A model generated the notes under the pieces. It saw only the letters and a list, made by a program, of their open reading frames with translations. It was not told where the DNA came from and ran no database searches. The position numbers were made by a program, and so were the translations under genes. This document shows, piece after piece, positions 12,709-26,363 of a DNA stretch of 32,000 bases. Source of the stretch: Ferroglobus placidus DSM 10642 (GTDB taxonomy: Archaea; Halobacteriota; Archaeoglobi; Archaeoglobales; Archaeoglobaceae); NCBI RefSeq assembly GCF_000025505.1, contig NC_013849.1:1770001-1802000 (forward strand), written 5' to 3'. The first letter of the stretch is position 1. The number at the start of each line of letters is the position of its first letter.

Positions 12709-13648
12709 CAATCTTCTCTAGTCTCAATCTCAAAGGTGGATGTGTTTTGGGTAAGGGTCTGTTAAAAATAATCTGGGGGTTGAGGTAAACAATGACAGAC
12801 TTTATTATTTCCCTGAAAAGTGCTTTGTAAGATACTCCCTCGACTAATAAGTTACCTGAAAATTCAACATTCTTTAAAAAAGACTCATAGCCTCTCAAAT
12901 TGTTGTAAATATGCAATTTAACAAGTGCCATTGCAGTTGGCTTAAATCCTACCATCTGCGTTGCATAAACGTCCGCCTCGTGCTCGTTTATCCAGCTTGA
13001 AATCATGAATGAAATGGCATACATTGGCAAAAATGCTACGAATGTCAAAGATAAGCTAATTTTCAGAGAAATATTAATATTCGAAAATAGAATTAACTGA
13101 GTTATAGCTATAATAAACGACGCTAACACGAGCCACAAACCACGCATGATTACCGTTGTAACGAACCAGAATTTGTTTTTAGAGTGCCCAATCTCATGAT
13201 AAATAATAGCTTCTCTTTCTTTCTCCGATAAAACTTCAAAAAGACTCTTGGTAATGTGTATATCCCTTTTCCTCGGATTAAACCACGCATTGTAAATTTT
13301 ATTAGCGTCATAGCATAGAATAATCGGAATCCCATTAATTTCGCTAATTTTCTCCGTATTCATGCATTTGAATTCTGAATATTCCCACCAGATTAGGAGG
13401 GTGATTAACAAAAAGAAAATAAAATACGCCATGACTGTAATAAGTAGGTTTGAACTAATCGCTGATAAAATCACACCTGTTAAAATCGAAAGAACCAGTA
13501 ACACAATAAAAAACTGCAAAAGAGTTAACAGTGACTTTCCCTTTTTGAGATATCCCACATATGTCAGAATAAGCGAAATGCAAAATAGGAGAGTCATCAA
13601 TAAAATTCCAAACAACAAATTTGTGACCAGAAAACTGGTGATATTCAT
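12683..13648 (-). CDS. M48-family (HtpX/Ste24-like) membrane zinc metalloprotease
   Basis: Has HExxH in AIIYHEIGHSK, a downstream NEHEADVYA (third ligand region) and a C-terminal KTHPPLRLRLEKI. There are 4 or more TM helices. The gene is very AT-rich. Confidence 0.75.
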   Translation of the reverse strand: MNITSFLVTNLLFGILLMTLLFCISLILTYVGYLKKGKSLLTLLQFFIVLLVLSILTGVILSAISSNLLITVMAYFIFFLLITLLIWWEYSEFKCMNTEKISEINGIPIILCYDANKIYNAWFNPRKRDIHITKSLFEVLSEKEREAIIYHEIGHSKNKFWFVTTVIMRGLWLVLASFIIAITQLILFSNINISLKISLSLTFVAFLPMYAISFMISSWINEHEADVYATQMVGFKPTAMALVKLHIYNNLRGYESFLKNVEFSGNLLVEGVSYKALFREIIKSVIVYLNPQIIFNRPLPKTHPPLRLRLEKIVRFSNCLQ

Positions 13649-13755
13649 ATGCTCTAGTTACTGTCATTTTCTTAAAAATTTTTGGCATACTTATCAAGAT
13701 TTAAGGATTTCTAACCCCACCAACAAGTCAATCTCATTTAAAGAAACAGAAACAA

Positions 13756-13771
13756 AAGATATTAATATCTT
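13756..13771. promoter_or_regulatory. Perfect 16-nt palindrome AAGATATTAATATCTT in the divergent intergenic spacer
   Basis: Read directly from the sequence; all 8 pairs are complementary. It is flanked by the near-direct repeats TTAAAGAAACA / TTAAAGAACA. Its function (operator?) is inferred only. Confidence 0.35.
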
Positions 13772-13848
13772 AAAGAACATTTAACAGTATGTTTGAGCAA
13801 GCAATTAAGACAGTAGAATTTTTAACCAAATAATCAGGTTGCCAAAAT

Positions 13849-14013
13849 ATGATATTCGGCTTCATCGTCCTTGCATTGCTCTATCCAATTTTGAAACAAA
13901 TGGCTCCAGACCCACAAACTCAGAGCTTTCTGCTCACTGTTTTAGCTGTGGCGATCATTTCACTTTCACTAATCAGTATTGCCTCAGAGGATGCTCGTGC
14001 AATCATAATTTAG
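13849..14013 (+). CDS. Candidate 54-aa two-TM peptide (below the ORF-track cutoff)
   Basis: ATG 13849 to TAG 14011-14013 encodes MIFGFIVLALLYPILKQMAPDPQTQSFLLTVLAVAIISLSLISIASEDARAIII: two hydrophobic helices joined by a Pro/Gln loop. It competes with the TTG-started Cys-rich ORF 13839..14078 in another frame. No clear Shine-Dalgarno. Confidence 0.3.
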   Translation: MIFGFIVLALLYPILKQMAPDPQTQSFLLTVLAVAIISLSLISIASEDARAIII

Positions 14014-15750: not shown

Positions 15751-16863
15751 TTACTCATACTTATGCAACCTCACCACAACTTTATCTCCATCTTCCAAAT
15801 CCCAACCATTCACCTCCAGAATACCTACAAAATTGCCATCAAATGACTTAGCCATTATAACGTAATCTCCATAATTTCTCAGCACAGTTTGATATTTTCC
15901 ACTCTCATCTGTCTCGCCTCTTTCAATCAGAGGGTCATACCAGTTTTTCAATGCGAAAATCTCTACTTCAGCATTTTTTGCTGGTCTATCGTTTGCTTCA
16001 CCTGCAGCAGGGTCGATTATCGCAACAATCGTGATATTCACGGCTTTAAATCCGTGTTTAGCAAGAACAGAAGTTCCAGTTTCATCTTCTCTCAGATTGT
16101 ATAAATTTTCGTAAACATTTCTTTTATTCTTTTTTAGATATTCAGCGTATGATTCTGCTTTCACAGGATAACTGGGTGTTGTAAAAATCCCGTCGAAAAC
16201 CCACCAACTTCCATTCCAGTAAATTTCTGGGAAAGCGTGGTCGAATCCTTCCATGTTGACCTTTCTTGTTTCCAGTCCAGTAACATCTCGTAAAAAGGTT
16301 TTAATCGCAATGGCAAATTCGCCGCAATTTCCCTTTTTCTGCAGAACTATTAATTTTTCGTATCCATCAAACCAGACAAGGTATGCTGCAAATAGTGGTG
16401 TGAATCCGAGGTAAAATCCTGAATCTCTCGTTATAATTCTGTTGGGCAGAGTTTCATCGCTTCCGTAAGTCCCTTCAAATTCATCCCTGTATGCTACAAC
16501 AACCGCCCAGGAAGAGTCCATTTTACTTTTCTCTTTGAGATTTTCTTTGAAAAACTGTGCGTACTCGTTTACGGTACCACGATACTCAAACTCCACAGCA
16601 ACAAGCATTGTAATTTGAGAAAGAAACCAGAAAATTATGAACAAAGCCATTATTTGCTTTGTCAATCTCTTCAAGCTCCTCACAGATTTTTGAAACTTAT
16701 ATGCGAAAACTGCCAGTGAAAGAATTAGGGAGATTAGCAGTGGATAAATCGTTATAACTTCAATTAACGGATAAATTACAGACAAGACTGGAAACTCGAC
16801 GAAAACGATAAACACGATAATTGACAAAGATGGCAATAAGCTCTTCCTACCTTCAATGCTCAT
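15751..16863 (-). CDS. Membrane-anchored transglutaminase-like (papain-fold) protein with a C-terminal beta-sandwich
   Basis: Has N-terminal TM helices. A Cys-His-Asp triad is suggested by KKGNCGEFA, GFDHAFPEIY and WWVFDG. The C-terminal AEVEIF...ETDESGKY is carboxypeptidase-regulatory-like. Confidence 0.65.
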   Translation of the reverse strand: MSIEGRKSLLPSLSIIVFIVFVEFPVLSVIYPLIEVITIYPLLISLILSLAVFAYKFQKSVRSLKRLTKQIMALFIIFWFLSQITMLVAVEFEYRGTVNEYAQFFKENLKEKSKMDSSWAVVVAYRDEFEGTYGSDETLPNRIITRDSGFYLGFTPLFAAYLVWFDGYEKLIVLQKKGNCGEFAIAIKTFLRDVTGLETRKVNMEGFDHAFPEIYWNGSWWVFDGIFTTPSYPVKAESYAEYLKKNKRNVYENLYNLREDETGTSVLAKHGFKAVNITIVAIIDPAAGEANDRPAKNAEVEIFALKNWYDPLIERGETDESGKYQTVLRNYGDYVIMAKSFDGNFVGILEVNGWDLEDGDKVVVRLHKYE

Positions 16864-16914
16864 GTAAAAAATTTAAGAAGCAAAAAATATTAACTTTGCA
16901 CTGATAAAACAAAC

Positions 16915-17286
16915 ATGGAACCCAATCCAAAAATCTCAAAAATCATCGAAACCATCAAATCCCATCCCAACGTAATTGCAATCTACCTCTTTGGATCTCA
17001 CGCTAAAGGAGAAACCACTCCGCTATCAGACATCGACATTGCAGTAATCCTCGAAAACCCAACTCCGGAAAGCGAAGCGGACATCGGAAGCTTATCATCT
17101 CCAGAAATAGATGTCGTCCTTTTCCACCGCCTACCTTTGCACATAAAATACGAAGTCTTCAAATACGGAAAGGAGATATTCGTTCGAGACGAGGAAAAGC
17201 TCTTGGAGATTAAGCTAAAGGTTATGAGAGAATACCTCGATACGGTTAGAATGTATAAAATGATATCATCAGAGGTGCTCGGATGA
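16915..17286 (+). CDS. MNT-type nucleotidyltransferase (antitoxin of HEPN/MNT modules)
   Basis: Has the LFGSHAKGETTPLSDIDIAV minimal NTase motif (GS...DxD). Confidence 0.8.
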   Translation: MEPNPKISKIIETIKSHPNVIAIYLFGSHAKGETTPLSDIDIAVILENPTPESEADIGSLSSPEIDVVLFHRLPLHIKYEVFKYGKEIFVRDEEKLLEIKLKVMREYLDTVRMYKMISSEVLG

Positions 17287-17713: not shown

Positions 17714-18667
17714 TTACTTCCACGCCTCCGGATGCAAAAACCTCGACATGACTTCAACAGCCTCGGCAAGTCTGTAGGAAGGGCGGGAGATTATGTCAGC
17801 ATTTATAACATAAACTCTTCCGCTCTTTACCGCCTCTACACTCTTCAGTCTTTCATCGCTGACCACCCATTCGTAAATAATGTTTCTTCCTCCACCCATT
17901 CCGCTTCCGCTGTTCACGACTATCACTTCAGGATTTGCAGCGATGAGATCTTCTACGCTCACTATCTTCCAGCCGGTAAAGTTGAACACGTTAACTCCGC
18001 CAGCCAATCTTATCACGTCGTCAGCAAAAGTCTCCCTTCCAGAAACCCATATCGGATCGTGCCATATTATGTGAGCAACCCTCACCTTTTTTTCGTTTTT
18101 AACTTTCTCTCTAACTTTATCAATTCTCTCAGCCATCTTTCTCACAAGCTCTTTTGCTTCATTTTCTTTTCCTGTGGCAACTCCGATTAAGTAAATACTC
18201 CTCATAACGTCTTCAATCGACTTGGGATCGAAAGCTATAACGTAAACTCCAAGGCTTCTCAAAGTTTCGATCGTTTCGAGTCCATTCCCATAGCTCGCTA
18301 CCACGAGATCCGGTTTTAACGCAAGCACTCTTTCGATGTTCACGGTAGAGTATCCTCCTACGCTGACGAGTTCTCCTTTTTCTTTCTTTTCCACCACCTC
18401 TGGAGGATAGTTGCAGTAGTCCGTTACTCCAACAACCTTGTCTCCAGCCCCTATCGCAAAGAGGATTTCGGTGTTGCTCGGGGCGAGGGAAACAATCCTC
18501 TCTGGCTTTACGTTTTTAATTGGATATCCGGTATCATCGATAAGAGACGTGTTGAAAACTTCGGAAAGGTTAAAATGTTTCTCAACTTCGATCTGTTTTT
18601 TCTCCTCGCACAGTGAAAGCAGGGGTAGGGAGATTAAAATTAAAAAAATGAGAATCCTCGTTTTCAT
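17714..18667 (-). CDS. btuF: BtuF/FhuD-type (class 8) substrate-binding protein of a corrinoid/siderophore ABC importer
   Basis: Has a signal/anchor MKTRILIFLILISLPLLSLC. ERIVSLAPSNTEILFAIGAGDKVVGVTDYCNYP and LKPDLVV are typical of periplasmic binding protein family 8. It clusters with btuCD and cbiZ. Confidence 0.8.
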   Translation of the reverse strand: MKTRILIFLILISLPLLSLCEEKKQIEVEKHFNLSEVFNTSLIDDTGYPIKNVKPERIVSLAPSNTEILFAIGAGDKVVGVTDYCNYPPEVVEKKEKGELVSVGGYSTVNIERVLALKPDLVVASYGNGLETIETLRSLGVYVIAFDPKSIEDVMRSIYLIGVATGKENEAKELVRKMAERIDKVREKVKNEKKVRVAHIIWHDPIWVSGRETFADDVIRLAGGVNVFNFTGWKIVSVEDLIAANPEVIVVNSGSGMGGGRNIIYEWVVSDERLKSVEAVKSGRVYVINADIISRPSYRLAEAVEVMSRFLHPEAWK

Positions 18668-20934
18668 TTTCTCACAGCCCTCGCTGCAAGCACGAGCAAA
18701 GCTATTACAGCTTCGAATCCCGGAATTCCTTTCTTCTCCTCTGTCGGCTTTGGAATTGGAGTTTCTTTAATTTCCGGAGCTGGCGTTTGGGTAGGAGTTT
18801 CTTCCACTATTTTCTCAGAAGTTTTTTCGGGTTTTGGAGTTTCTAATACTTTTGCTGGAGTTGGTGTTGGGGCAGACACTTCCTCTTTTTCCATAACCTT
18901 AATCGGGTGAGGTTTTCCGAGCAAAGCCATTATCGCGCTGACGGTCATGTAGCCGGGGTTGGAGGTTTGATGAGAAGTGTATTTAAAGTAACTCTCTTCG
19001 GTTTGAAGGCTCAGCAGATGATCCACAACGCTGATGTTGTTTTTCTTCCACTCCACTGGATTTATTCCAGCTGCAACCAATGCTTGAATAGTCCAGGAAT
19101 CGCTTGCGGCGTTGCTTGCGGAATTTCCAAAGTATCTCATTCCCCCATCTTCGTTCTGTCCTTGTTTCAGATAGCTGAGAGCTTTCTTTATAACTTCCGA
19201 GTCTTTAGACTCTCCAGCAGCTATCAAAGCTTGTATTGCCGCGGCAGTATCGTCAAAATCGCTCTTCTCTCCGACAGCCCACGCAAAACCACCGTCACCG
19301 TTTTGCTGCTCTTTCAACCAATCAACAGACTTGTTTACGTCCTCTCCAACGGAGACGAGAGCTAAGATGCCCCAGATTGTTGTGTAGATGTAATCGCCTA
19401 TTTGCCCGTTCTCCTTAACCCTTTCCTTCAACTTTTCAACGAGATTTACTCCTGCGAAACTCCTTGGATCTTCTCCGGCTGCCACGAGAGCTAAAATAGT
19501 TCTCGCGTAATCAGCTGTGCCCATTTTAGGAAGCTCATCTTCTAAGTTTTCCCGAAGGTAATCAATCGGGCTCTTTCCGTTCTTCTTCCACTTCTCTGGA
19601 TCTTCGCCAGCTGCAACTAAAGCCATTATCGCCCAGGAAGTTTTCGCAACGCTACTTTCCTCTCCCGGATTCGAAAATCCACCATCATCGTTCTGAACGC
19701 TTTTGAGCCAGTTGAGAGCTTTGACTATTCTTTCGTCCTCCGGTTTTAGCGGGAAGTTGTCCCATTTCACGATGATCGCAAACAGGCTGAAGTTTGTTAT
19801 TTTCGAAGAGAAGAAGTAGTGCGTTTCGTTCTCGTCAATAAGATTTGTTTTCAGACACTTCCACTCATATTCAACGTATTTTGCGAGACATAAGTTTTCG
19901 GGAGATTTGTTTTCGAGAAGCTCCTTCTTTACGGAGAAGTTCAGCAAAATTTTTGCGCTTTCGTTAACTTTAAGCTCGAAGGCTTCGAGAACATCACCGT
20001 GAACGTTTCTAAACTCAACCCCACCAACCTTTCTCTGAGCGAGTTCAATCAAAACGGGTTTTTCTCCTTCAATCTTAAGCCTCATCGGAATTTTGAGATC
20101 GATAGCTAAGGTTTCGTTTGGTTTAACCACCTCAGCTCTCTTCGTTAGGTTTAATTCAATCACTCTCTCTTTCTTTTCCGGAGCGGGAGTTGGCGTAGGC
20201 GATGGTGTTGATGCTGGAGCTTCAGCTTCTTCGTAAGAAGGAGTTTTCCAGTAAACGTTCACGCTGAAAGTCCAGTCCGGGAATGTGATTATTTCTATTC
20301 TGTACGGTGAACTTTCGGGAGTTTCGCTCATGCTTCGGGAGAAGTACCAGACGACTTTATCTCCAGCATTTAGTTCGTACTGCTCCGAGCTTACGCTCGG
20401 AATAACACCATCCACCGCATACATCCAGCCGGAAGTTGCTCCGAGATCTCCCGTGCAGACACCTTTGATGCAATCAACGAACAAACCGTAGCTCCACTTC
20501 TTCACCTTCACGCTGAACCCTTTGACTTCAGCAGCCCTTATCAAAGCTCCGAGAGCCGTTCTATATTTTATCGACACGCTCTCTCCATCGGCGGAGATAG
20601 TAGTTGTGCCAGAAGGAAGGGTATAATCTCCCATTGGCTCACTACCACCTTTTGTTTGGCAGGAAACGACGTCAACAAGCTTTGACGCCTTTTCGCTCCC
20701 GCTTATTGCCTCTATGTATAGCTTTCCGGTAAGCTGAGGTGTGAAGTATGCAGTGGTTCCGTTCGCGTATATGGGAGTTCCGTTGTTAATTCGAATTACT
20801 ATGAAGGATGGTTTATCGACCGTTATCTTCAGCTTCTCTCCCACGCAGTTTCCGCTGACGTCGATGGTTAGACCGTTTGAAGTCTGAATCAGCAGTAAAG
20901 CCGAAACTAAAAGTAATATTGCACCTTTCTTCAT
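18664..20934 (-). CDS. Secreted, PGF-CTERM-anchored protein: DUF4430 domain plus prenyltransferase/terpene-cyclase-like alpha/alpha-toroid repeats
   Basis: Has a signal peptide. The DUF4430-like block is TALGALIRAAEVKGF...GATSGWMYAVDGV...NAGDKVVWYF. There are four or more Q-x-DGGF repeats (SVQNDDGGF, EQQNGDGGF, GQNEDGGM). Thr/Pro-rich linkers are present. The C-terminus GIPGFEAVIALLVLAARAVRK is an archaeosortase PGF-CTERM signal. Confidence 0.75.
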   Translation of the reverse strand: MKKGAILLLVSALLLIQTSNGLTIDVSGNCVGEKLKITVDKPSFIVIRINNGTPIYANGTTAYFTPQLTGKLYIEAISGSEKASKLVDVVSCQTKGGSEPMGDYTLPSGTTTISADGESVSIKYRTALGALIRAAEVKGFSVKVKKWSYGLFVDCIKGVCTGDLGATSGWMYAVDGVIPSVSSEQYELNAGDKVVWYFSRSMSETPESSPYRIEIITFPDWTFSVNVYWKTPSYEEAEAPASTPSPTPTPAPEKKERVIELNLTKRAEVVKPNETLAIDLKIPMRLKIEGEKPVLIELAQRKVGGVEFRNVHGDVLEAFELKVNESAKILLNFSVKKELLENKSPENLCLAKYVEYEWKCLKTNLIDENETHYFFSSKITNFSLFAIIVKWDNFPLKPEDERIVKALNWLKSVQNDDGGFSNPGEESSVAKTSWAIMALVAAGEDPEKWKKNGKSPIDYLRENLEDELPKMGTADYARTILALVAAGEDPRSFAGVNLVEKLKERVKENGQIGDYIYTTIWGILALVSVGEDVNKSVDWLKEQQNGDGGFAWAVGEKSDFDDTAAAIQALIAAGESKDSEVIKKALSYLKQGQNEDGGMRYFGNSASNAASDSWTIQALVAAGINPVEWKKNNISVVDHLLSLQTEESYFKYTSHQTSNPGYMTVSAIMALLGKPHPIKVMEKEEVSAPTPTPAKVLETPKPEKTSEKIVEETPTQTPAPEIKETPIPKPTEEKKGIPGFEAVIALLVLAARAVRK

Positions 20935-22787
20935 TTCGACACCTCGCAGCTTACGGGACCGTATAAGAACAGCAGCTTTTCCGGATACTCATCGAATCTG
21001 TAAACTCCCGCATACAGCTCGTAGCTGCCGGCGCTGTTTCTTTGTGGAACGTGAAGCAGTACCGGAACTTCCAAGCTCTTCTCGCCACCAACGTAGAACG
21101 TGGAAACTCCCGCTATATAATCACCTTTTTCATTCAAACCGCTTACAACGACAACGAACAATCCCTTTTCCCATACTTCAACGCTTACCCAAGCCGTAGC
21201 GTTCCCTCCAAGTTTTGCCGAGCTCACGCTGATGTTGCTTATTTCTACTGGCTTCACGCTCGCGTCAATTTCCAAAACCACGGAACAGTTTTCTAAGCTG
21301 TTTCCGTCACCGTATCCGTAGTAAATCCTCTCTCCGTCTTTGAGGTAGTAAAGATTCGCTCCGACGGATAGCAAGGATGTTTCGTTCCAGATTGACCAGT
21401 AAATCCAGCTATCTCCAACGCTTTTCGTTGTTAGCCCCATTATCGAAGTTACGAAAAACGAACCGTAGCTTTCGTAACAGCTATCATCAAGCGTTACTTC
21501 AAACCACACCTCCGCATCTTCCGTGGTGTAGTTGAGTGCTTTCATTAAAGCTCCAAGCGCCGTGTCTTCTCTAACCTCGTATTCTTTGCCATTCACCACT
21601 ACTGACACGTTTATTGGACTGAGAATTACGCTGACGTTAATCTTTCCCTTACTGTCGAAGCAGTAGATGAATCCGCTGTCGGTGCCGATGTAAAGCTTAT
21701 CCTCAGCCACGAAAGGGGAAGACATTATGTTATAGTAGCTTCCTTCCGGCGGTTTCAATCTGTAGTACCAGAGCGCCTTTCCGGTGAAGGCGTCTAAAGC
21801 GTATATCGTCCCTTCTGGAGTGTTTGTGGCGAAGTAAACTACTCCTCCAGCTACTGCTGGAGATGAGTCGATTTTTCCGTTTGCAGTGAAATTCCAGAGC
21901 TCTTCGCCGGTGGTTGCGTTAAAGCAGTAAAGCTTGCCGTTCGATGAGCCGATGAAAACTCTACCGTAGGCAACAGCTGCAGTGGACATCGAACCGTTAA
22001 AACTCACGTTCCAGGCTTCGCTTCCGTAAAAGTTTACAGCGTAGAGCTTCTTCTCAGTAGCTACGAAAATTTTGCCGTAGCCTATCGACGGAGAGTTCGT
22101 AATCTTTCCGTCGACGGGAAATTCCCAGGCTATGGTTCCGTTCTCGTGGATGGCAAATAGCTTGTGCACACCGCTTTCGTTACCGGCGAAGAAAATCAAT
22201 CCGTTATAAGCTGCTGGAGATGTGTAGTGAGAGATCTCTCCTCCGGTTGTGTGGTTCCACAGAACGTTTCCCTCAAGATCTAGCTTCCACAGCGTTCCAC
22301 TCGAAAAAGTCGTGACGTAAACGGAGTCGTTGTAAATCAGAGGAGAGGAAGCTATCCCCCACCACGAAGGAGAGGTCTCGAGGAGAATTGACTTCTCTAT
22401 TCTTCCATTGCTCGCGTTAACGTAGTAAAGGTGCCCTGAAAGATTTCCCACAATCAAAACCTCTCCGTTCGCAGCTACACTCGAAGCTCCGGTTATGTTC
22501 GCGTTTCTCCACTCTATGATGCCGCTGGATGCGTTGAGCGAGTACAGCCCCGGACTCCATTCGCCCCATCCGTACCAGTTTGCCACGTAAATGTGTCCGT
22601 TGCTGTAAATCGGAGAAGCACCTACAAGACCCGTCAGCTCCGTCTTCCACGCAACGATTGGTAGAATCGTGCTGTTTGCGGTGAAGTTGCCGGTTCTCGC
22701 TTCGTCTCCGTGAAAAGTTGTGGCTGAGGCTGCTGACATAAGCATTAACAATGCCATCGTTACGATCAACACCCTTAACTTCAGCAT
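20931..22787 (-). CDS. Secreted PQQ-like beta-propeller protein with DUF4430 domain and C-terminal Ig-like domain
   Basis: Signal peptide MLKLRVLIVTMALLMLMSAASA. Repeated propeller blades are seen (SSPxxxxGxVYVxxxxGxLYAL-type repeats). The DUF4430-like block is TALGALMKALNY...GDSWIYWSIWNE...LKDGERIYYGYG. ATG 22787 is preferred; the track start at 22796 is GTG. Confidence 0.7.
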   Translation of the reverse strand: MLKLRVLIVTMALLMLMSAASATTFHGDEARTGNFTANSTILPIVAWKTELTGLVGASPIYSNGHIYVANWYGWGEWSPGLYSLNASSGIIEWRNANITGASSVAANGEVLIVGNLSGHLYYVNASNGRIEKSILLETSPSWWGIASSPLIYNDSVYVTTFSSGTLWKLDLEGNVLWNHTTGGEISHYTSPAAYNGLIFFAGNESGVHKLFAIHENGTIAWEFPVDGKITNSPSIGYGKIFVATEKKLYAVNFYGSEAWNVSFNGSMSTAAVAYGRVFIGSSNGKLYCFNATTGEELWNFTANGKIDSSPAVAGGVVYFATNTPEGTIYALDAFTGKALWYYRLKPPEGSYYNIMSSPFVAEDKLYIGTDSGFIYCFDSKGKINVSVILSPINVSVVVNGKEYEVREDTALGALMKALNYTTEDAEVWFEVTLDDSCYESYGSFFVTSIMGLTTKSVGDSWIYWSIWNETSLLSVGANLYYLKDGERIYYGYGDGNSLENCSVVLEIDASVKPVEISNISVSSAKLGGNATAWVSVEVWEKGLFVVVVSGLNEKGDYIAGVSTFYVGGEKSLEVPVLLHVPQRNSAGSYELYAGVYRFDEYPEKLLFLYGPVSCEVSK

Positions 22788-22796
22788 TTTTGACAC

Positions 22797-22818
22797 CTAC
22801 TCAAATTTTTTTGAGTAG
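22797..22818. promoter_or_regulatory. Perfect 9-bp inverted repeat CTACTCAAA-TTTT-TTTGAGTAG abutting the start of the propeller gene
   Basis: Read directly from the sequence. It lies between a TATA-like ATTTAAATAG (minus strand, about 22831-22840) and the start codon, about 100 nt downstream of the cbiZ stop. It could be an operator, a 5' hairpin or a terminator. Confidence 0.4.
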
Positions 22819-22919
22819 TTGCAAGCACAGCTATTTAAATGTTATCCATTTATCTTGACTAGTTAACAAGAAATTTTAAGTAACTTCAAAAGTATCTTAC
22901 AATAAAACGTTAAAAGTTT

Positions 22920-23498
22920 TCACTCGAAGTTTTTCCACTTTTTTAAGCTTCTTTTAACTCCCTCGCATACGCAACTCCAAATCTTCTTTCCAATTTCGCT
23001 TGCCGGTCCCGAGAAGCGGTGGTACTTTCCTCTTTGGGTTGATAGCACTATCACCGCATCCGTGTTCGTTCCGGTGAAGCTGTATCCGCTTTCAATTAAA
23101 GCCTTACTCTTAGCCTCGGTGATCGTTATTATCGAGTTTAGCAAAGCGGACTTGCTCATTCTCGCATCTATTGCTGCTATAATGTTGATAGTCCCTATTT
23201 TTTCGTTCGGGTTGTTTACACCGGCAGTTACGAAAACCACCACGTTGTCTTTTCTTTCAACGCTCAAATTCTCTATGGGGACTGCTGTCAGCAATCCGAA
23301 GTACGACTTTAATCCAAGTTTTTTCGCAACGCTTCTCAAGTAATCTGCCGGGTCTGAAGAGTAGAATTCCTCCCCCACTTTGTGGTTGAAAGCGTATCTA
23401 ACCTTTTTCCATCCACCTAAAAGCCCGGTGCTGACTCCGAAAAATCTACCTTCTACTATTAGCGTGTCCTCCTCGATCCAGTACCTTACGTATCTCAT
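22920..23498 (-). CDS. cbiZ: Adenosylcobinamide amidohydrolase
   Basis: MRYVRYWIEEDTLIVEG...NTDAVIVLS, about 190 aa, in the typical archaeal cbiZ-btuFCD context. ATG 23498 is preceded by GGGAGG; the track start at 23525 is TTG. Confidence 0.75.
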   Translation of the reverse strand: MRYVRYWIEEDTLIVEGRFFGVSTGLLGGWKKVRYAFNHKVGEEFYSSDPADYLRSVAKKLGLKSYFGLLTAVPIENLSVERKDNVVVFVTAGVNNPNEKIGTINIIAAIDARMSKSALLNSIITITEAKSKALIESGYSFTGTNTDAVIVLSTQRGKYHRFSGPASEIGKKIWSCVCEGVKRSLKKWKNFE

Positions 23499-24693
23499 AC
23501 AGAGCCTCCCTTTCAGATCTGACAACTCTGGCTTTTCTCACAATTTCCTCATAAATTTCTTCAGCTTCTTTTCCGAAAAAGTTTCTTAATTCAAATCGAG
23601 TTTTTTCAATAACTATCAGCTTTCCGAGTTCGGCAGCTTTCTTCGCAGCTACTAAATTCTTGAGGTTCCCTTTACCGACAACCAGATTCGAAAGCACGAC
23701 CACGTCAGCTTTTTCGATAAACTTCAGATTTTTTTCGTGTGCTTCATCGCTTATCGGAGAAAAAGGAGCCTCCTCTACGAACTCTCCGTCAACGTCAATT
23801 ACAGCTTCCCAATCCGAATCGAGAACGTTGAGAACTCCGGCAGAAACGGAATACCCTTCTTCCGAAAGCATGTAGATTAAATCTCTCCCGCTACCTCCTC
23901 CGCAGATGATGTGAACTCTTCTCCCGTTCCTCTCTCCTCTCGTCTTCGGAATTACGTAAACCGACCTTCCAACTTTTTTTATTCTTACGTCAGCTCCGTA
24001 AACATCTTTTATCGATTCTTCTGTTAAAACCTCCTCAGCCTCTCCAGCGTAAACGACTTTTCCATTTTTTACCATAATAATCTTGTCGGAGAACATTGAA
24101 GCGAGATTTATATCGTGCATAGCCACCAAAGCCGAACATCCTGAGCCGACTTTCCTCCTCACGATTTCCATTATGTCTATCTGAGCCGATATGTCGAGGT
24201 GAGCTGTCGGCTCGTCTAACAGCATGAGCTTTGGCTGTTGAGCGAAAACTCTCGCAAGTAAAACTTTCTGCTTTTCCCCTCCGCTTAATTCGGAAAACTT
24301 TCTTTCAGCGAATTCAGCCATTCCAACTTCTTCGAGAGCTCTCTTCGCTATTTCCAAATCACGGTTTTTGGGAAGCTTGAATCCCGACAGATGAGGTGTC
24401 CTTCCTAAAAGGACGACATCTAAAACCGTGAGATTGGTGTCAGAGGACTCTTGTGGAAGGTAAGCGGCGATCTTGGAAATTTCCTCAATTTTCTCGATTC
24501 TTTTTCCGTCAAAGAAAACAACTCCCTTCACGGGCTTGAGAATTCCGAATATCGTCCTGAGCAATGTGCTTTTTCCACTACCGTTCGGACCGAGTAAAGC
24601 CACTATTTCCCCTTTCTCAACCTCTAAAGTCACGTCTCTCAGAATTTCCCTGCTTTCGATTTTTACAGTTACGTTCTCAACTTTCAGCCTCAT
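23446..24693 (-). CDS. btuD: BtuD/FepC-type ABC ATPase with an extra ~160-aa C-terminal domain
   Basis: Walker A GPNGSGKST, signature LSGGEKQ, Walker B LMLLDEP and H-loop AMHD are all present. Residues from about 256 to 415 (RVHIICGGGSGRDLIYMLSEEGYSVSAGV...) form an additional Rossmann-like domain. GGAGGAGGT lies before the ATG. Confidence 0.85.
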   Translation of the reverse strand: MRLKVENVTVKIESREILRDVTLEVEKGEIVALLGPNGSGKSTLLRTIFGILKPVKGVVFFDGKRIEKIEEISKIAAYLPQESSDTNLTVLDVVLLGRTPHLSGFKLPKNRDLEIAKRALEEVGMAEFAERKFSELSGGEKQKVLLARVFAQQPKLMLLDEPTAHLDISAQIDIMEIVRRKVGSGCSALVAMHDINLASMFSDKIIMVKNGKVVYAGEAEEVLTEESIKDVYGADVRIKKVGRSVYVIPKTRGERNGRRVHIICGGGSGRDLIYMLSEEGYSVSAGVLNVLDSDWEAVIDVDGEFVEEAPFSPISDEAHEKNLKFIEKADVVVLSNLVVGKGNLKNLVAAKKAAELGKLIVIEKTRFELRNFFGKEAEEIYEEIVRKARVVRSEREALYEIRKVLDRGGHANSRR

Positions 24694-24694
24694 T

Positions 24695-25660
24695 TTACCT
24701 CCTCCAGAGTAAGTACAGGAAGAAAGGTCCTCCGAGGAGAGCTGTTAGCGCTCCGACTGGGATTTCTCCGGCTGTCGATATTCTCGAGGCGAGGTCAACT
24801 AAGGGCATGAAAACAGTTGAAAAGAGTATCGTCGCTGGAAGGAGCTTTCTGTAATCCTCTCCAACCATCAGCCTCATCGTGTGGGGGACTATTATTCCCA
24901 CAAATCCGATAACGCCGCTCACTGCAACGGCTGAGGCTGTTAAGAGAGAAACGACTCCTATCAAATACCTTCTGAAGTTCTCAACGTTTAACCCCACTGC
25001 CATCGCGTGCTCCTCTCCAAGCAAGAGTGCGTTGAAGTTCCAGCTGTTGAATAAGAGAAAGAGAAGTCCGAAAAAGGCTATTGGTAAAGAGAAATACACC
25101 TCTTCCCATCTCGGATTCGAAAAGCTTCCCATTATCCAGAAAACTACTTTGTGCATGCTTTGAGCTGAGAAGTATATGAGCAGCGAAGTTAAACCTGAGA
25201 GAGTAGTAGCTATGGCTATTCCCGCAAGCAAAATCGCGTAGTTCTGATCTTTAAATCTCGCTAAAGTCCCGAGTTTGTACACTGTGAAGGATGTCAGAAG
25301 GGCGAAAACGAAAGCCGAGATCAAGATGTTGCTCATAGTGGCTATTCCCAAAACGTAAACTATCGCGGCACCAACGCTTGCACCGCTCGCCACTCCGAGA
25401 ACGTACGGCTCAGCTAATGGATTTCTGAACAAAGCCTGCATAGCGCAACCAGATGACGAAAGAGCAGCTCCGACGATCATCGCAAGTATAAGCCTCGGGA
25501 GCCTCACGCCGAAGAAAATGCTAACGTCACTTTCCTTAGCAACTCCATAAACGATTCTGAAGAAAACGTCAACACCGAAAATTCCAGAACTGCCGACGGT
25601 AAGGCAGAGTACTGCTACAAGAATGTTTAGAGCCGTTAGCGAAGCTATGAGCTTTTTCAC
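24695..25660 (-). CDS. btuC: BtuC/FecCD-family ABC permease
   Basis: About 9-10 TM helices. RLPRLILAMIVGAALSSSG and GEIPVGALTALLGGPFFLYLL are typical FecCD motifs. GTG start. Confidence 0.85.
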   Translation of the reverse strand: MKKLIASLTALNILVAVLCLTVGSSGIFGVDVFFRIVYGVAKESDVSIFFGVRLPRLILAMIVGAALSSSGCAMQALFRNPLAEPYVLGVASGASVGAAIVYVLGIATMSNILISAFVFALLTSFTVYKLGTLARFKDQNYAILLAGIAIATTLSGLTSLLIYFSAQSMHKVVFWIMGSFSNPRWEEVYFSLPIAFFGLLFLLFNSWNFNALLLGEEHAMAVGLNVENFRRYLIGVVSLLTASAVAVSGVIGFVGIIVPHTMRLMVGEDYRKLLPATILFSTVFMPLVDLASRISTAGEIPVGALTALLGGPFFLYLLWRR

Positions 25661-25700: not shown

Positions 25701-26363
25701 TTAAACGAGGTCTTCGATTGACAAGCTCGGCTTCTTCCTTTCCTCAAGCAACCTCGTAATTATTAGAGTTCCCAAGTATTCTCCGTTACTGTCCCTTATC
25801 GGGAAGTAATGCTTTTTGAAAACATAGTCTCCTTTTACTATTTCCCTTTCGAACTTGTTTCTCCTTCCCGATTTGAAATCTTCTATTATTTGCCGGACGA
25901 AACCTCTTACTTCCTCGGGATGGAACTCGTAAACGCTCCTTCCGATTATTCCCTCTATTTTTTTCCCGGTGGCTGTGAAAAAGAAAACGACTTTGTCGTT
26001 TCTATCCACGAAGATCAGGCTTTCTTGAACTCCGTAAACGTACGACCTGTCTATCTTGTCTTCGATGTGATGAATTTCATACTCTCCGAAGATTCTTATG
26101 AAGTTCTCGAGGATTTTTTCAGCGAATAGGTCTTCCAAGCTTTTTTCGACGTAATAAACGTATTTTTTCCCGAGCCTTCCTCTGGATTTGACTTCTTTTC
26201 TCTTAACAAATCCCTTCCTGTATAGCCTTTCGAGCGTTGAAGCTATTGTAGTGTACGGGATTTTCCCGTTTTCCTTCGATAAAACTTCTTTCACTTTTTT
26301 TACGTCAGCCTCTCCTATTTTGCTTAGCGTATCTATAATTTTTTTCTCAAACTCTGAAAGCAT
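25701..26363 (-). CDS. Winged-helix (BlaI/TrmB-like) plus PAS-domain transcriptional regulator
   Basis: N-terminus LSEFEKKIIDTLSKIGEADVKKV...YTTIASTLERLYRKGFVKRKEV is a winged HTH. C-terminus GRSVYEFHPEEVRGFVRQIIEDFKSG...FPIRDSNGEYLGTLIITR is PAS-like. It is divergent from the cbiM operon. Confidence 0.65.
   Translation of the reverse strand: MLSEFEKKIIDTLSKIGEADVKKVKEVLSKENGKIPYTTIASTLERLYRKGFVKRKEVKSRGRLGKKYVYYVEKSLEDLFAEKILENFIRIFGEYEIHHIEDKIDRSYVYGVQESLIFVDRNDKVVFFFTATGKKIEGIIGRSVYEFHPEEVRGFVRQIIEDFKSGRRNKFEREIVKGDYVFKKHYFPIRDSNGEYLGTLIITRLLEERKKPSLSIEDLV

What the first reader, a model, noticed from the sequence alone, without database searches (positions are those of the whole stretch)
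18664..22796. Two giant secreted DUF4430 proteins inside a btuFCD-cbiZ cluster: candidate archaeal cell-surface corrinoid capture system with transcobalamin-like parts
Both genes are start/stop-coupled to btuF (ATGA overlaps at 20931-20934 and 18664-18667). Each carries a DUF4430 block (GWMYAVDG...GDKVVWYF; SWIYWSIWNE...DGERIYYGYG). I recognise this domain as related to the cobalamin-binding beta domain of transcobalamin and intrinsic factor. The 756-aa protein combines it with an alpha/alpha-toroid (prenyltransferase/terpene-cyclase QxDGGF repeats), the same fold class as the transcobalamin alpha domain. The order is reversed here (beta then alpha), and the protein is tethered by PGF-CTERM to the archaeal envelope. 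The 621-aa protein instead fuses DUF4430 to a PQQ-like beta-propeller. This recalls the beta-propeller surface B12-capture lipoprotein BtuG of Bacteroides. cbiZ-btuFCD linkage for cobinamide salvage in Archaea is established. These extracellular components, as far as I know, have not been functionally described in Archaea.
Basis: partly seen in the sequence, partly recalled or inferred. Interest (0 to 1): 0.65.

Follow-up and report, generated by a model that had tools for sequence, protein, structure and literature searches.

The report
Archaeal surface corrinoid-capture genes beside BtuF
Two secreted archaeal proteins carry the vitamin-B12-binding domain of animal transcobalamin and sit in a conserved three-gene unit with the B12 transporter's binding protein BtuF, so they most likely catch corrinoids at the cell surface; the idea was predicted by computation in 2007 and has never been tested in archaea.

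Summary
Two minus-strand genes (20931-22796 and 18664-20934) are joined to each other and to btuF by ATGA overlaps. They lie downstream of btuC, btuD and cbiZ.

- **756-aa protein:** signal peptide, Ig-like domain, DUF4430/SLBB, PGF-pre-PGF sandwich, alpha/alpha toroid, Pro/Thr stalk and a PGF-type membrane tail.
- **621-aa protein (more likely 618 aa):** signal peptide, 8-bladed PQQ/BamB-type propeller, DUF4430/SLBB and a beta-sandwich.

The two SLBB domains are homologous to each other. Both match the haptocorrin beta domain at marginal significance (E about 2e-3).

In 80 related loci (Archaeoglobi, Methanomicrobiales, Methanosarcinales, ANME-1), btuF follows the toroid gene in 69 of 74. The propeller gene precedes it in 56 of 57. 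In Methanomicrobiales the toroid is fused to BtuF.

My best reading is a surface corrinoid capture and hand-off module feeding BtuFCD (confidence 0.6).

Three caveats apply:
- The toroid resembles terpene cyclases by sequence and fold, keeps a DxDD-like motif, and is not specifically homologous to the transcobalamin alpha domain.
- The BtuG comparison is only an analogy.
- Burroughs et al. (2007) already predicted prokaryotic transcobalamin-like scavengers of this kind, including in Archaeoglobus.

No ligand has been demonstrated.

The parts
20931..22796 (-). Secreted propeller-SLBB protein. The maximal ORF is 621 aa; the probable start is ATG 22787, giving 618 aa. It ends in an ATGA overlap with the next gene.
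   Evidence: ORF. PQQ_2 E=2.9e-37 and DUF4430 22.2 bits. AF2 pLDDT 93.4, pTM 0.86. Gene callers give 618 aa. SD-like AGGTG at 22798-22794.
21642..22715 (-). 8-bladed PQQ/BamB-type beta-propeller (residues about 28-385 of the 621-aa protein).
   Evidence: Foldseek: Cake8 TM 0.90, BamB and YxaL. PDB phmmer: v31Bagel8, 1e-76.
21267..21635 (-). DUF4430/SLBB (transcobalamin-beta-like) domain of the propeller protein (residues about 388-510).
   Evidence: hhalign against the other SLBB: 99.7%, E=7e-26. The profile hits the haptocorrin 4kki beta domain at E=1.9e-3, and 3u7z weakly. 35/45 orthologues hit PF14478 at E<=0.01.
20934..21263 (-). C-terminal beta-sandwich domain of the propeller protein (residues about 512-621). 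No membrane anchor.
   Evidence: All-strand AF2 secondary structure at high pLDDT. Conserved as 'P621_Cterm' in related loci.
18664..20934 (-). Anchored SLBB-toroid protein, 756 aa. Its stop codon overlaps the btuF start (ATGA at 18667-18664).
   Evidence: ORF; overlap; Pfam; AF2 pLDDT 84.6; 372 homologues, mostly Archaeoglobi.
20245..20622 (-). DUF4430/SLBB domain of the 756-aa protein (residues about 105-230). It follows a signal peptide and an Ig-like domain (residues 22-92).
   Evidence: PF14478 E=1.5e-13. 43/43 family members hit it. The profile hits the haptocorrin beta domain at E=1.7e-3.
19765..20163 (-). PGF-pre-PGF beta-sandwich domain (residues about 258-390), after a Pro/Thr linker (residues 232-255).
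   Evidence: TIGR04213 E=3.7e-10, 40 bits (cut-off 28). AF2 strands.
18907..19752 (-). Single alpha/alpha toroid made of six helical hairpins with QxxDGGF repeats (residues about 395-676). It contains the invariant SDFDDT at residues 558-563.
   Evidence: Pfam SQHop_cyclase_C, Prenyltrans and TED. Foldseek: monodomain class II cyclases 8pak and MstE, SHC, and prenyltransferase beta. Invariant columns.
18667..18891 (-). Pro/Thr/Glu/Lys-rich stalk (residues 682-735) and PGF motif with hydrophobic tail and basic end (GIPGFEAVIALLVLAARAVRK): a probable archaeosortase-type membrane anchor.
   Evidence: Sequence. pLDDT below 50 for the stalk and a terminal helix at 741-755. TIGR04126 only 11.4 bits. 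TIGR04216 C-terminal match E=8e-4.
17714..18667 (-). btuF: substrate-binding protein of the corrinoid ABC importer, with a signal peptide ending in a lipobox-like Cys20.
   Evidence: Peripla_BP_2 E=4e-43. Best named PDB matches are B12-binding proteins: 5ysc 1e-30 and E. coli BtuF 2e-26; heme ShuT 1e-23. The Cys is conserved in orthologues.
22797..22919 (-). Intergenic region between cbiZ and the propeller gene, with a TATA-like TTTAAATA (22839-22832) about 48 nt upstream of ATG 22787. It is a possible internal promoter for the propeller, toroid and btuF genes.
   Evidence: Sequence read directly. Promoter function is inferred, not tested.
22920..23525 (-). cbiZ (adenosylcobinamide amidohydrolase), the archaeal cobinamide salvage enzyme.
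   Evidence: PF01955 E=4.8e-43.
23446..25660 (-). btuD (23446-24693, with a C-terminal extension of about 165 aa) and btuC (24695-25660): ATPase and permease of the importer.
   Evidence: ABC_tran and FecCD. Best NCBIfam hit is 'corrinoid ABC transporter ATPase' NF007082 at 285 bits, below its cut-off.

Best explanation
The two genes encode the extracellular front end of a corrinoid (cobamide/cobinamide) uptake system.

Both proteins are exported by signal peptides. The 756-aa protein is held on the membrane by a C-terminal PGF-type anchor at the end of a Pro/Thr-rich stalk. The propeller protein has no anchor and is assumed to associate with it or with the S-layer.

Each protein carries an SLBB/DUF4430 domain, the fold that forms the B12-binding beta domain of transcobalamin, intrinsic factor and haptocorrin. 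The proposed steps are:
1. The SLBB domains catch free corrinoids.
2. In the 756-aa protein, the flexible linker lets the SLBB close the ligand against the mouth of the alpha/alpha toroid, a transcobalamin-style sandwich with the domain order reversed.
3. The ligand passes to BtuF, which is membrane-tethered, translationally coupled here, and fused to the toroid in Methanomicrobiales.
4. BtuCD imports the ligand.
5. CbiZ converts incomplete corrinoids to cobyric acid for re-use.

**Shown:** domain content, homology of both SLBB domains to each other, their marginal match to the haptocorrin beta domain, gene order, coupling, conservation and fusions.

**Inferred:** export, anchoring, ligand identity, the sandwich geometry and the hand-off.
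For: **Domains.** DUF4430 in the 756-aa protein: E=1.5e-13. It is present in 43/43 members of the toroid family and 35/45 of the propeller family. The two SLBB regions are homologous (hhalign 99.7%, E=7e-26). Each profile independently hits the beta domain of haptocorrin 4kki (E=1.7e-3 and 1.9e-3).

**Established knowledge.**
- DUF4430 is the C-terminal domain of transcobalamins (PMC4350170).
- The isolated TC beta domain binds cobalamin and cobinamide. Separately expressed TC alpha and beta domains assemble only when cobalamin is present (PMC5599065). Split or re-ordered alpha/beta parts are therefore mechanistically plausible.

**Conserved context in 80 loci.**
- btuF lies directly downstream in 69/74 loci, and the propeller-SLBB gene upstream in 56/57.
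- Gaps are <=30 nt in 49/55 and 48/54 gene pairs, with a -4 overlap in 28.
- Fusions: SP-toroid-BtuF-PGF proteins in Methanomicrobiales (P0112, P0115), and propeller + 2 DUF4430 + toroid in one protein (P0098).

**Independent corrinoid links.**
- cbiZ is present here and in 12/47 large loci.
- CobD/CbiB and a class I/II aminotransferase are neighbours in 6-7 loci.
- cbiMQO is adjacent.
- The best named PDB relatives of BtuF are B12-binding proteins.

**Phyletic argument (inference).** The module occurs in Archaeoglobi and in cytochrome-free Methanomicrobiales. This favours a cofactor that both groups use, namely corrinoids.

**Prior prediction.** The same function was predicted for this protein clade in PMC1796856.
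Against: - No binding data exist for any archaeal member, and I found no direct binding data for a bacterial one.
- The SLBB match to haptocorrin is only marginally significant (E about 2e-3).
- The toroid is not specifically related to the TC alpha domain (PF01122 is sub-threshold and hit in 1/43 members; TC is absent from the Foldseek top 50). It keeps an invariant DxDD-like motif typical of class II terpene cyclases.
- AF2 pTM is 0.60 for the 756-aa protein, so the relative placement of SLBB and toroid is not predicted.
- Burroughs et al. noted that archaea carrying these proteins usually make B12 themselves, and suggested a different metabolite might be scavenged.
- A Lactobacillus sakei operon with split TC-alpha/beta-like proteins was linked by deletion to heme uptake (preprint 10.1101/864751).
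- Four loci have the gene pair without an adjacent btuF.
- cbiZ is present in only about a quarter of large loci.
Confidence: 0.6

Rival explanations
1. The architecture and the hand-off to a BtuF-type binding protein are the same, but the ligand is another tetrapyrrole or metallo-cofactor (heme, a siroheme or F430 precursor, or a metallophore) rather than a corrinoid.
For: - Peripla_BP_2 proteins also carry heme and siderophores. Heme-binding ShuT scores only slightly below BtuF (1e-23 against 2e-26).
- The L. sakei TC-alpha/beta-like pair was assigned to heme uptake.
- Burroughs et al. raised a 'distinct metabolite' for archaea.
- cbiZ is absent from most loci.
Against: - The only ligand known for this SLBB clade is B12 or cobinamide.
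- The named neighbours are corrinoid-specific: cbiZ, CobD/CbiB, cbiMQO and a corrinoid-type BtuD.
- The module is present in Methanomicrobiales, which do not use heme cytochromes (established physiology; inference).
- The L. sakei heme claim for the TC-like proteins rests on docking plus a deletion of the whole operon.
Confidence: 0.15
2. The proteins are surface scaffolds or retention factors. They hold BtuF in the pseudo-periplasm, or store corrinoid as a reservoir, without delivering ligand to the transporter themselves.
For: - Several Ig-like/PGF-pre-PGF/PKD domains, a stalk and an anchor are typical of envelope proteins.
- Burroughs et al. suggested that the accessory domains tether to the surface.
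- Extracellular B12 'reservoir' proteins are reported in Bacteroides (BtuJ1 preprint, listed).
- BtuF has its own lipobox-like Cys or PGF anchor.
Against: - A scaffold role does not explain two or more conserved ligand-binding SLBB domains per module (up to four in Methanoculleus).
- It does not explain the invariant polar ring of residues in the toroid.
- The tight toroid-BtuF fusion suggests functional hand-off.
Confidence: 0.12
3. The toroid is a catalytically active, monodomain class II terpene-cyclase-like or prenyltransferase-like enzyme acting outside the cell, and the SLBB serves as a substrate-binding accessory.
For: - The best sequence and fold matches are terpene cyclases, including the monodomain enzymes 8pak, 8paj and MstE.
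- SDFDDT (residues 558-563) aligns with the SDVDDT segment of drimenyl diphosphate synthase, the segment that holds the residue mutated in the D303 variants. It is invariant in 43 and 15 sequences.
Against: - The protein is secreted and anchored outside the membrane, in a transporter operon with no isoprenoid genes.
- The toroid is fused to a solute-binding protein in other archaea.
- The 'DxDD' segment occupies the same position as the N-cap segment of the other five hairpin repeats (TADYART, GDYIYTT, ASDSWT). It may therefore be a repeat or ligand-contact feature (sequence inspection).
Confidence: 0.05

Closest known systems
Animal transcobalamin / intrinsic factor / haptocorrin (PF01122 alpha domain + DUF4430 beta domain)
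   Same: Secreted. The SLBB/DUF4430 beta domain is homologous at marginal E-values. It is paired with a six-hairpin alpha/alpha toroid through a flexible linker. In TC the isolated beta domain binds Cbl and Cbi, and the two domains assemble around the ligand.
   Different: The order is beta then alpha, with an Ig-like domain between them. The toroid is not specifically homologous to PF01122 and looks like a terpene cyclase. The protein is membrane-anchored. It delivers to an ABC-importer binding protein rather than to an endocytic receptor. A second SLBB sits on a propeller protein.
Prokaryotic 'transcobalamin-like clade' of the SLBB superfamily (Burroughs, Balaji, Iyer, Aravind 2007, PMC1796856)
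   Same: This is the family the two proteins belong to. The shared features are signal peptides, SLBB fused to a toroid (either order), to Ig-like domains (Archaeoglobus example) or to a beta-propeller (Clostridium example), and operons with two SLBB paralogues. B12 scavenging was predicted.
   Different: That work linked the clade to CbiO/CbiQ (ECF-type) transporters and left the archaeal ligand open. Here the partner is BtuF-BtuCD with CbiZ. The three-gene unit (propeller-SLBB, SLBB-toroid, btuF) is conserved across orders, and the toroid is fused to BtuF in Methanomicrobiales. These points are not in that paper's main text.
Bacteroides surface B12 capture proteins (BtuG with BtuB; BtuH, BtuJ)
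   Same: The functional logic is the same: surface-exposed accessory binders encoded in B12 transport loci that catch the vitamin and pass it to the transporter (PMC6143338, PMC10404256, listed). BtuG is also a beta-propeller.
   Different: No homology. The propeller here is an 8-bladed PQQ/BamB type. No DUF4465 match was listed in the Pfam scan at E<=0.01. There is no outer membrane and no TonB-dependent BtuB. The presumed binding module here is the SLBB.
Lactobacillus sakei Lsa1839/Lsa1840 with an ECF transporter (preprint 10.1101/864751)
   Same: Secreted TC-beta-like and TC-alpha-like (toroid) proteins are encoded next to an importer and proposed to scavenge a tetrapyrrole for it.
   Different: Alpha and beta are separate proteins. 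The partner is an ECF transporter. The authors argue for heme. It is a bacterial system.
Archaeal BtuFCD-CbiZ corrinoid salvage (Halobacterium; Woodson and Escalante-Semerena, from my own knowledge)
   Same: The btuC, btuD (long form), btuF and cbiZ genes in this window fit that system.
   Different: As far as I know, the described system has no extracellular SLBB, toroid or propeller components.

Membership tests
Transcobalamin/IF/haptocorrin family | C-terminal beta domain of the SLBB/DUF4430 type | tested here: met
   PF14478 E=1.5e-13. SLBB profiles hit the 4kki beta domain at E about 2e-3. Both SLBBs are homologous to each other.
Transcobalamin/IF/haptocorrin family | Alpha domain belonging to PF01122 (Cobalamin_bind) | tested here: not met
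   18.2 bits against a cut-off of 25, over 48 residues only. Hit in 1 of 43 family members. No TC, IF or HC in the Foldseek top 50. Fold class (alpha/alpha toroid) only.
Transcobalamin/IF/haptocorrin family | Order alpha then beta, joined directly by a flexible linker | tested here: not met
   SLBB at residues 105-230 precedes the toroid at 395-676, with a linker and a PGF-pre-PGF sandwich between them.
Transcobalamin/IF/haptocorrin family | One corrinoid sandwiched between the two domains | not testable with these tools
   Needs binding assays, a ligand-bound structure or ligand-aware modelling. AF2 pTM of 0.60 gives no domain docking.
Prokaryotic transcobalamin-like SLBB clade (Burroughs 2007) | Secreted or surface protein with SLBB fused to a toroid, Ig-like domain or propeller | tested here: met
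   N-terminal hydrophobic signal sequences. Domain maps. These architectures are listed in PMC1796856.
Prokaryotic transcobalamin-like SLBB clade (Burroughs 2007) | [quoted passage not shown] | tested here: met
   Two adjacent SLBB genes plus btuF/btuCD, conserved in 56/57 and 69/74 loci. The transporter is BtuFCD rather than the CbiO/CbiQ type named in the paper.
Prokaryotic transcobalamin-like SLBB clade (Burroughs 2007) | Beta-hairpin insert after the beta-grasp helix (clade signature) | tested here: inconclusive
   The AF2 secondary structure shows strands after helices 127-138 and 413-420. I could not superpose coordinates.
Class II terpene cyclase / prenyltransferase toroids | Alpha/alpha toroid with QW-like repeats and a DxDD acid motif | tested here: met
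   SQHop_cyclase_C E=5e-18. SDFDDT aligns with SDVDDT of drimenyl diphosphate synthase. Invariant in the family.
Class II terpene cyclase / prenyltransferase toroids | Cytoplasmic or membrane enzyme in an isoprenoid context; full-length model scores | tested here: not met
   Secreted and anchored protein in a B12 transport operon. TIGR01507 scores 47 bits against a cut-off of 431, and TIGR01787 scores 55 against 323. Single toroid only.
Bacteroides BtuG | BtuG-type (DUF4465) propeller lipoprotein partnered with TonB-dependent BtuB | tested here: not met
   The propeller matches 8-bladed Cake8, BamB and YxaL and Pfam PQQ_2. No DUF4465 hit was listed. No BtuB and no outer membrane in this context.
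PGF-CTERM / archaeosortase A substrates | C-terminal PGF motif, transmembrane helix and basic tail matching TIGR04126/PF18204 | tested here: inconclusive
   The motif GIPGFEAVIALLVLAARAVRK is visible. TIGR04126 scores 11.4 bits against a cut-off of 24.5. PF18204 is hit in 2/43 relatives.
PGF-CTERM / archaeosortase A substrates | PGF-pre-PGF domain upstream | tested here: met
   TIGR04213 scores 40 bits against a cut-off of 28, residues 324-388.
PGF-CTERM / archaeosortase A substrates | Archaeosortase ArtA encoded in the same genome | not testable with these tools
   Only the 32-kb window is available.
Archaeal BtuFCD-CbiZ corrinoid salvage | Peripla_BP_2 binding protein, FecCD permease, ABC ATPase and CbiZ in one cluster | tested here: met
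   Pfam hits for all four. BtuF is nearest to B12-binding proteins among named PDB chains. The BtuD best hit is 'corrinoid ABC transporter ATPase', below its cut-off.

The most novel reading that the evidence does not exclude
Archaea of several orders run a multi-protein extracellular corrinoid relay built from transcobalamin-type beta domains. One SLBB would be clamped against a beta-propeller instead of a toroid, giving a second, previously unseen kind of SLBB 'sandwich'. Another would be clamped against a terpene-cyclase-derived toroid whose invariant DxDD-like ring has been re-used for ligand binding. Ligand would pass down the relay to BtuF. This would be the prokaryotic ancestor-like state of the animal B12 carrier, and a convergent counterpart of the Bacteroides BtuG/BtuH relay.
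Probability: 0.2. Interest if true: 0.7.

Novelty: new variant of a known kind. Interest (0 to 1): 0.45.

Why it matters
Corrinoids are traded between microbes, and uptake machinery decides who wins that exchange. In archaea only the inner-membrane BtuFCD/CbiZ salvage route is described.

A conserved surface capture module would add the missing outer step for Archaeoglobi, Methanomicrobiales, Methanosarcinales and ANME-1. These groups depend heavily on corrinoid enzymes.

It would also give experimental access to the prokaryotic relatives of transcobalamin. Their function has remained a computational prediction since 2007. Testing them would show how an alpha/alpha toroid of terpene-cyclase type can be used for ligand capture.

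The toroid-BtuF fusions and the tight three-gene unit give clear, testable hypotheses about which parts touch each other.

Tried and rejected
- **BtuH as a DUF4430 protein.** I recalled this from memory. The BtuH paper (PMC8941943) mentions neither Pfam, DUF domains nor transcobalamin, so I dropped the comparison.
- **Sequence link between the toroid and the TC alpha domain.** The single PF01122 hit (E=1.3e-3) is not reproduced in any of the 42 relatives. TC is not among the top Foldseek hits. I rejected it as specific homology.
- **Toroid profile against the PDB (A5).** The fused BtuF columns entered the profile, so the output was dominated by binding proteins. It was useful only to show that the fused BtuF moiety is B12-type.
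- **Cobalamin riboswitch or other RNA.** No Rfam family reached threshold in the window.
- **PGF-CTERM by HMM.** Sub-threshold.
- **Literature.** Searches for DUF4430, transcobalamin-like, SLBB+toroid, cobamide+archaea+BtuF and PGF-CTERM+cobalamin found no functional study of the archaeal proteins.
- **Domain docking.** I could not superpose models on transcobalamin or BtuG, or inspect domain docking.

Full report
**Observation**

On the minus strand the window carries the following genes, in order:
- an HTH+PAS regulator (25701-26363)
- btuC (24695-25660)
- a long btuD (23446-24693)
- cbiZ (22920-23525)
- a 123-nt gap
- a 621-aa ORF (20931-22796)
- a 756-aa ORF (18664-20934)
- btuF (17714-18667)

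cbiM, cbiQ and cbiO lie divergently on the plus strand. The ATGA overlaps at 20934-20931 and 18667-18664 are present.

The gap upstream of the 621-aa ORF holds a TATA-like TTTAAATA (22839-22832) and an SD-like AGGTG (22798-22794) six nucleotides before ATG 22787. The annotated 618-aa product is therefore more likely than the 621-aa maximal ORF. The last three genes may also have their own promoter (inference).

No Rfam family, including cobalamin riboswitches, is found in the window.

**Anatomy of the 756-aa protein**

Pfam, NCBIfam and an AlphaFold2 model (mean pLDDT 84.6, pTM 0.60) give the following layout:

| Residues | Feature |
|---|---|
| 1-21 | signal peptide |
| 22-92 | Ig-like sandwich |
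| 105-230 | DUF4430/SLBB domain (PF14478, E=1.5e-13) |
| 232-255 | disordered Pro/Thr linker |
| 258-390 | PGF-pre-PGF sandwich (TIGR04213, above cut-off) |
| 395-676 | six-hairpin alpha/alpha toroid |
| 682-740 | disordered Pro/Thr/Glu/Lys stalk |
| C-terminus | GIPGF + hydrophobic helix + basic end |

The C-terminal tail looks like a PGF-CTERM sorting signal. It scores only 11.4 bits against TIGR04126, whose cut-off is 24.5.

**Anatomy of the 621-aa protein**

The model is very confident and compact (pLDDT 93.4, pTM 0.86). It shows a signal peptide, an 8-bladed propeller (residues 28-385), an SLBB domain (388-510) and a C-terminal beta-sandwich with no anchor.

The propeller is of the PQQ/BamB type. 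Its Foldseek matches include Cake8 at TM 0.90, together with BamB and YxaL.

**Is the second DUF4430 real?**

It scores 22.2 bits, just under Pfam's 23.8 cut-off. Three further results support it:
- A profile of this region from 18 orthologues aligns to the profile of the 756-aa SLBB with hhalign probability 99.7% and E=7e-26.
- 35 of 45 orthologues hit PF14478 at E<=0.01.
- Both profiles independently find the beta domain of human haptocorrin (4kki), at E=1.7e-3 and 1.9e-3.

The DUF4430 assignment therefore holds. Its relation to the B12-binding beta domain of the animal carriers is supported here only marginally by sequence. It is also supported by the literature (PMC4350170; PMC1796856).

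**The toroid**

The toroid is not a recognisable transcobalamin alpha domain.
- The PF01122 hit is sub-threshold (18.2 bits) and is found in just 1 of 43 family members.
- Sequence and fold searches give squalene-hopene cyclase, drimenyl diphosphate synthase, the monodomain class II cyclases 8pak, 8paj and MstE, prenyltransferase beta subunits and complement TED domains.
- The family keeps an invariant SDxDDT (residues 558-563). In the HMMER alignment this pairs with the SDVDDT segment of drimenyl diphosphate synthase.

Reading the six hairpin repeats side by side, this segment sits where the other repeats have TADYART, GDYIYTT and ASDSWT. It may therefore be part of a ring of conserved polar residues at the N-termini of the inner helices (sequence inspection; inference). 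Whether that ring binds a ligand or is catalytic cannot be decided here.

**Comparative context**

Homologues are abundant in Archaeoglobi (Archaeoglobus, Geoglobus, Ferroglobus). They extend to Methanomicrobiales, Methanosarcinales and Methanophagales.

I mapped the window's proteins by tblastn onto 80 loci fetched around relatives of the 756-aa protein. Gene-pair gaps were measured from ORF calls on the same loci.

| Feature | Count |
|---|---|
| btuF directly downstream, same strand | 69 of 74 informative loci |
| propeller-SLBB gene upstream | 56 of 57 |
| btuC present (loci >=15 kb) | 29 of 47 |
| cbiZ present (loci >=15 kb) | 12 of 47 |
| propeller-to-toroid gene gap <=30 nt | 49 of 55 |
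| toroid-to-btuF gene gap <=30 nt | 48 of 54 (28 with the same -4 overlap) |

An unbiased clustering of neighbouring ORFs found only these families as frequent partners. CobD/CbiB and a class I/II aminotransferase also appear in 6-7 loci.

The domain arrangement varies, but the parts do not:
- Some propeller proteins carry two SLBB copies.
- A Methanoculleus protein carries a propeller plus four DUF4430 domains.
- One protein joins a propeller, two DUF4430 domains and a toroid (P0098).
- In Methanomicrobiales the toroid is fused to BtuF, as signal peptide, toroid, linker, BtuF and PGF-type tail (P0112, P0115).
- Toroid-only proteins with a stalk and a PGF-type tail also exist (P0110).
- In four Archaeoglobaceae loci a radical SAM gene replaces btuF.

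**Is the transporter a corrinoid transporter?**

Among named PDB chains, BtuF's closest relatives are B12-binding proteins: 5ysc at 1e-30 and E. coli BtuF at 2e-26. Heme-binding ShuT follows at 1e-23, so the margin is modest.

The best NCBIfam hit for BtuD is the haloarchaeal-type 'corrinoid ABC transporter ATPase', though below its cut-off. CbiZ is a clear match.

Together with cbiMQO next door and CobD/CbiB in other loci, a corrinoid is the most economical ligand. The module's presence in Methanomicrobiales, which do not use heme cytochromes, argues in the same direction (established physiology; inference).

**Mechanism proposed**

1. The SLBB domains capture corrinoid at the cell surface.
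2. In the anchored protein the flexible linker allows the SLBB to close the ligand against the toroid mouth.
3. The ligand passes to tethered BtuF and then to BtuCD.
4. CbiZ recycles incomplete corrinoids.

Two published results make this plausible. The isolated transcobalamin beta domain binds cobalamin and cobinamide, and separately expressed alpha and beta domains assemble only in the presence of cobalamin (PMC5599065).

The steps from export onward are inferred. Only domain identity, gene order, coupling, conservation and fusions are shown.

**Relation to what is known**

Burroughs, Balaji, Iyer and Aravind (2007) defined the SLBB superfamily and its transcobalamin-like clade. They listed SLBB+toroid in either order, SLBB+Ig (an Archaeoglobus protein), SLBB+propeller (Clostridium) and operons with two SLBB paralogues. 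They predicted B12 scavenging, linked to CbiO/CbiQ transporters. For archaea they suggested a different metabolite might be involved, because these organisms make B12.

Their main text does not mention BtuF-type partners.

An L. sakei preprint assigns a split alpha/beta pair with an ECF transporter to heme uptake.

The Bacteroides BtuG/BtuH/BtuJ systems are functional analogues without homology.

I found no functional study of the archaeal proteins.

The finding is therefore a variant of a known, computationally predicted kind. What may be new is:
- the conserved propeller-SLBB / SLBB-toroid / btuF unit
- its coupling to BtuFCD-CbiZ
- the toroid-BtuF fusions
- the archaeal anchoring

**Verdict**

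Interest is moderate. The system is a well-defined and testable candidate rather than a surprise.

Noticed in passing
window 17714-18667 (btuF N-terminus); loci L001-L068: Most Archaeoglobi BtuF orthologues, including the one in the window (…LPLLSLC, Cys20), have a signal peptide ending in a lipobox-like Cys. A few (L031, L047, and the Methanoculleus toroid-BtuF fusions) instead end in a PGF-type C-terminal tail. This suggests two alternative ways of tethering BtuF.
   Followed up: partly
window 23446-24693 and 22920-23525: btuD carries a C-terminal extension of about 165 aa with no Pfam match at E<=0.01. The extension is conserved in many related loci (the 'btuD_Cext' hits). The end of btuD overlaps the cbiZ ORF by about 50-80 nt, here and elsewhere.
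   Followed up: partly
window 25701-26363 (-): A 220-aa protein with an N-terminal winged-helix domain (Penicillinase_R/TrmB-like) and a PAS_10 domain lies between btuC and the divergent cbiMQO genes. It is a candidate local regulator of cobalt and corrinoid uptake.
   Followed up: no
P0235; P0139, P0223, P0224, P0230 (homologues of the propeller protein): One propeller homologue continues into the N-terminal part of a CobN/Mg-chelatase domain (PF02514, E=8e-10). JGI names several others 'cobaltochelatase CobN'. This is another tetrapyrrole-linked association of this propeller family.
   Followed up: partly
L033, L036, L037, L038 (Archaeoglobaceae MAGs): In these four loci the propeller and toroid genes are followed by a radical SAM/BATS-domain gene instead of btuF.
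   Followed up: partly
L052 (Desulfobacteria MAG), L080 (Nitrosotalea MAG): The SLBB-toroid-btuF module also appears on contigs binned to a bacterium and to a thaumarchaeon. This could be horizontal transfer or mis-binning; I did not examine it.
   Followed up: no
window 18664-20934, residues 558-563 (nt about 19246-19263): An SDFDDT segment is invariant across the whole toroid family, including the BtuF-fused forms. It aligns with the segment of drimenyl diphosphate synthase that holds the residue mutated in the D303 variants.
   Followed up: partly
window 13001-14000 and 16001-17000: These stretches have a G+C content clearly below the window average: 0.337 and 0.375 against about 0.44.
   Followed up: no
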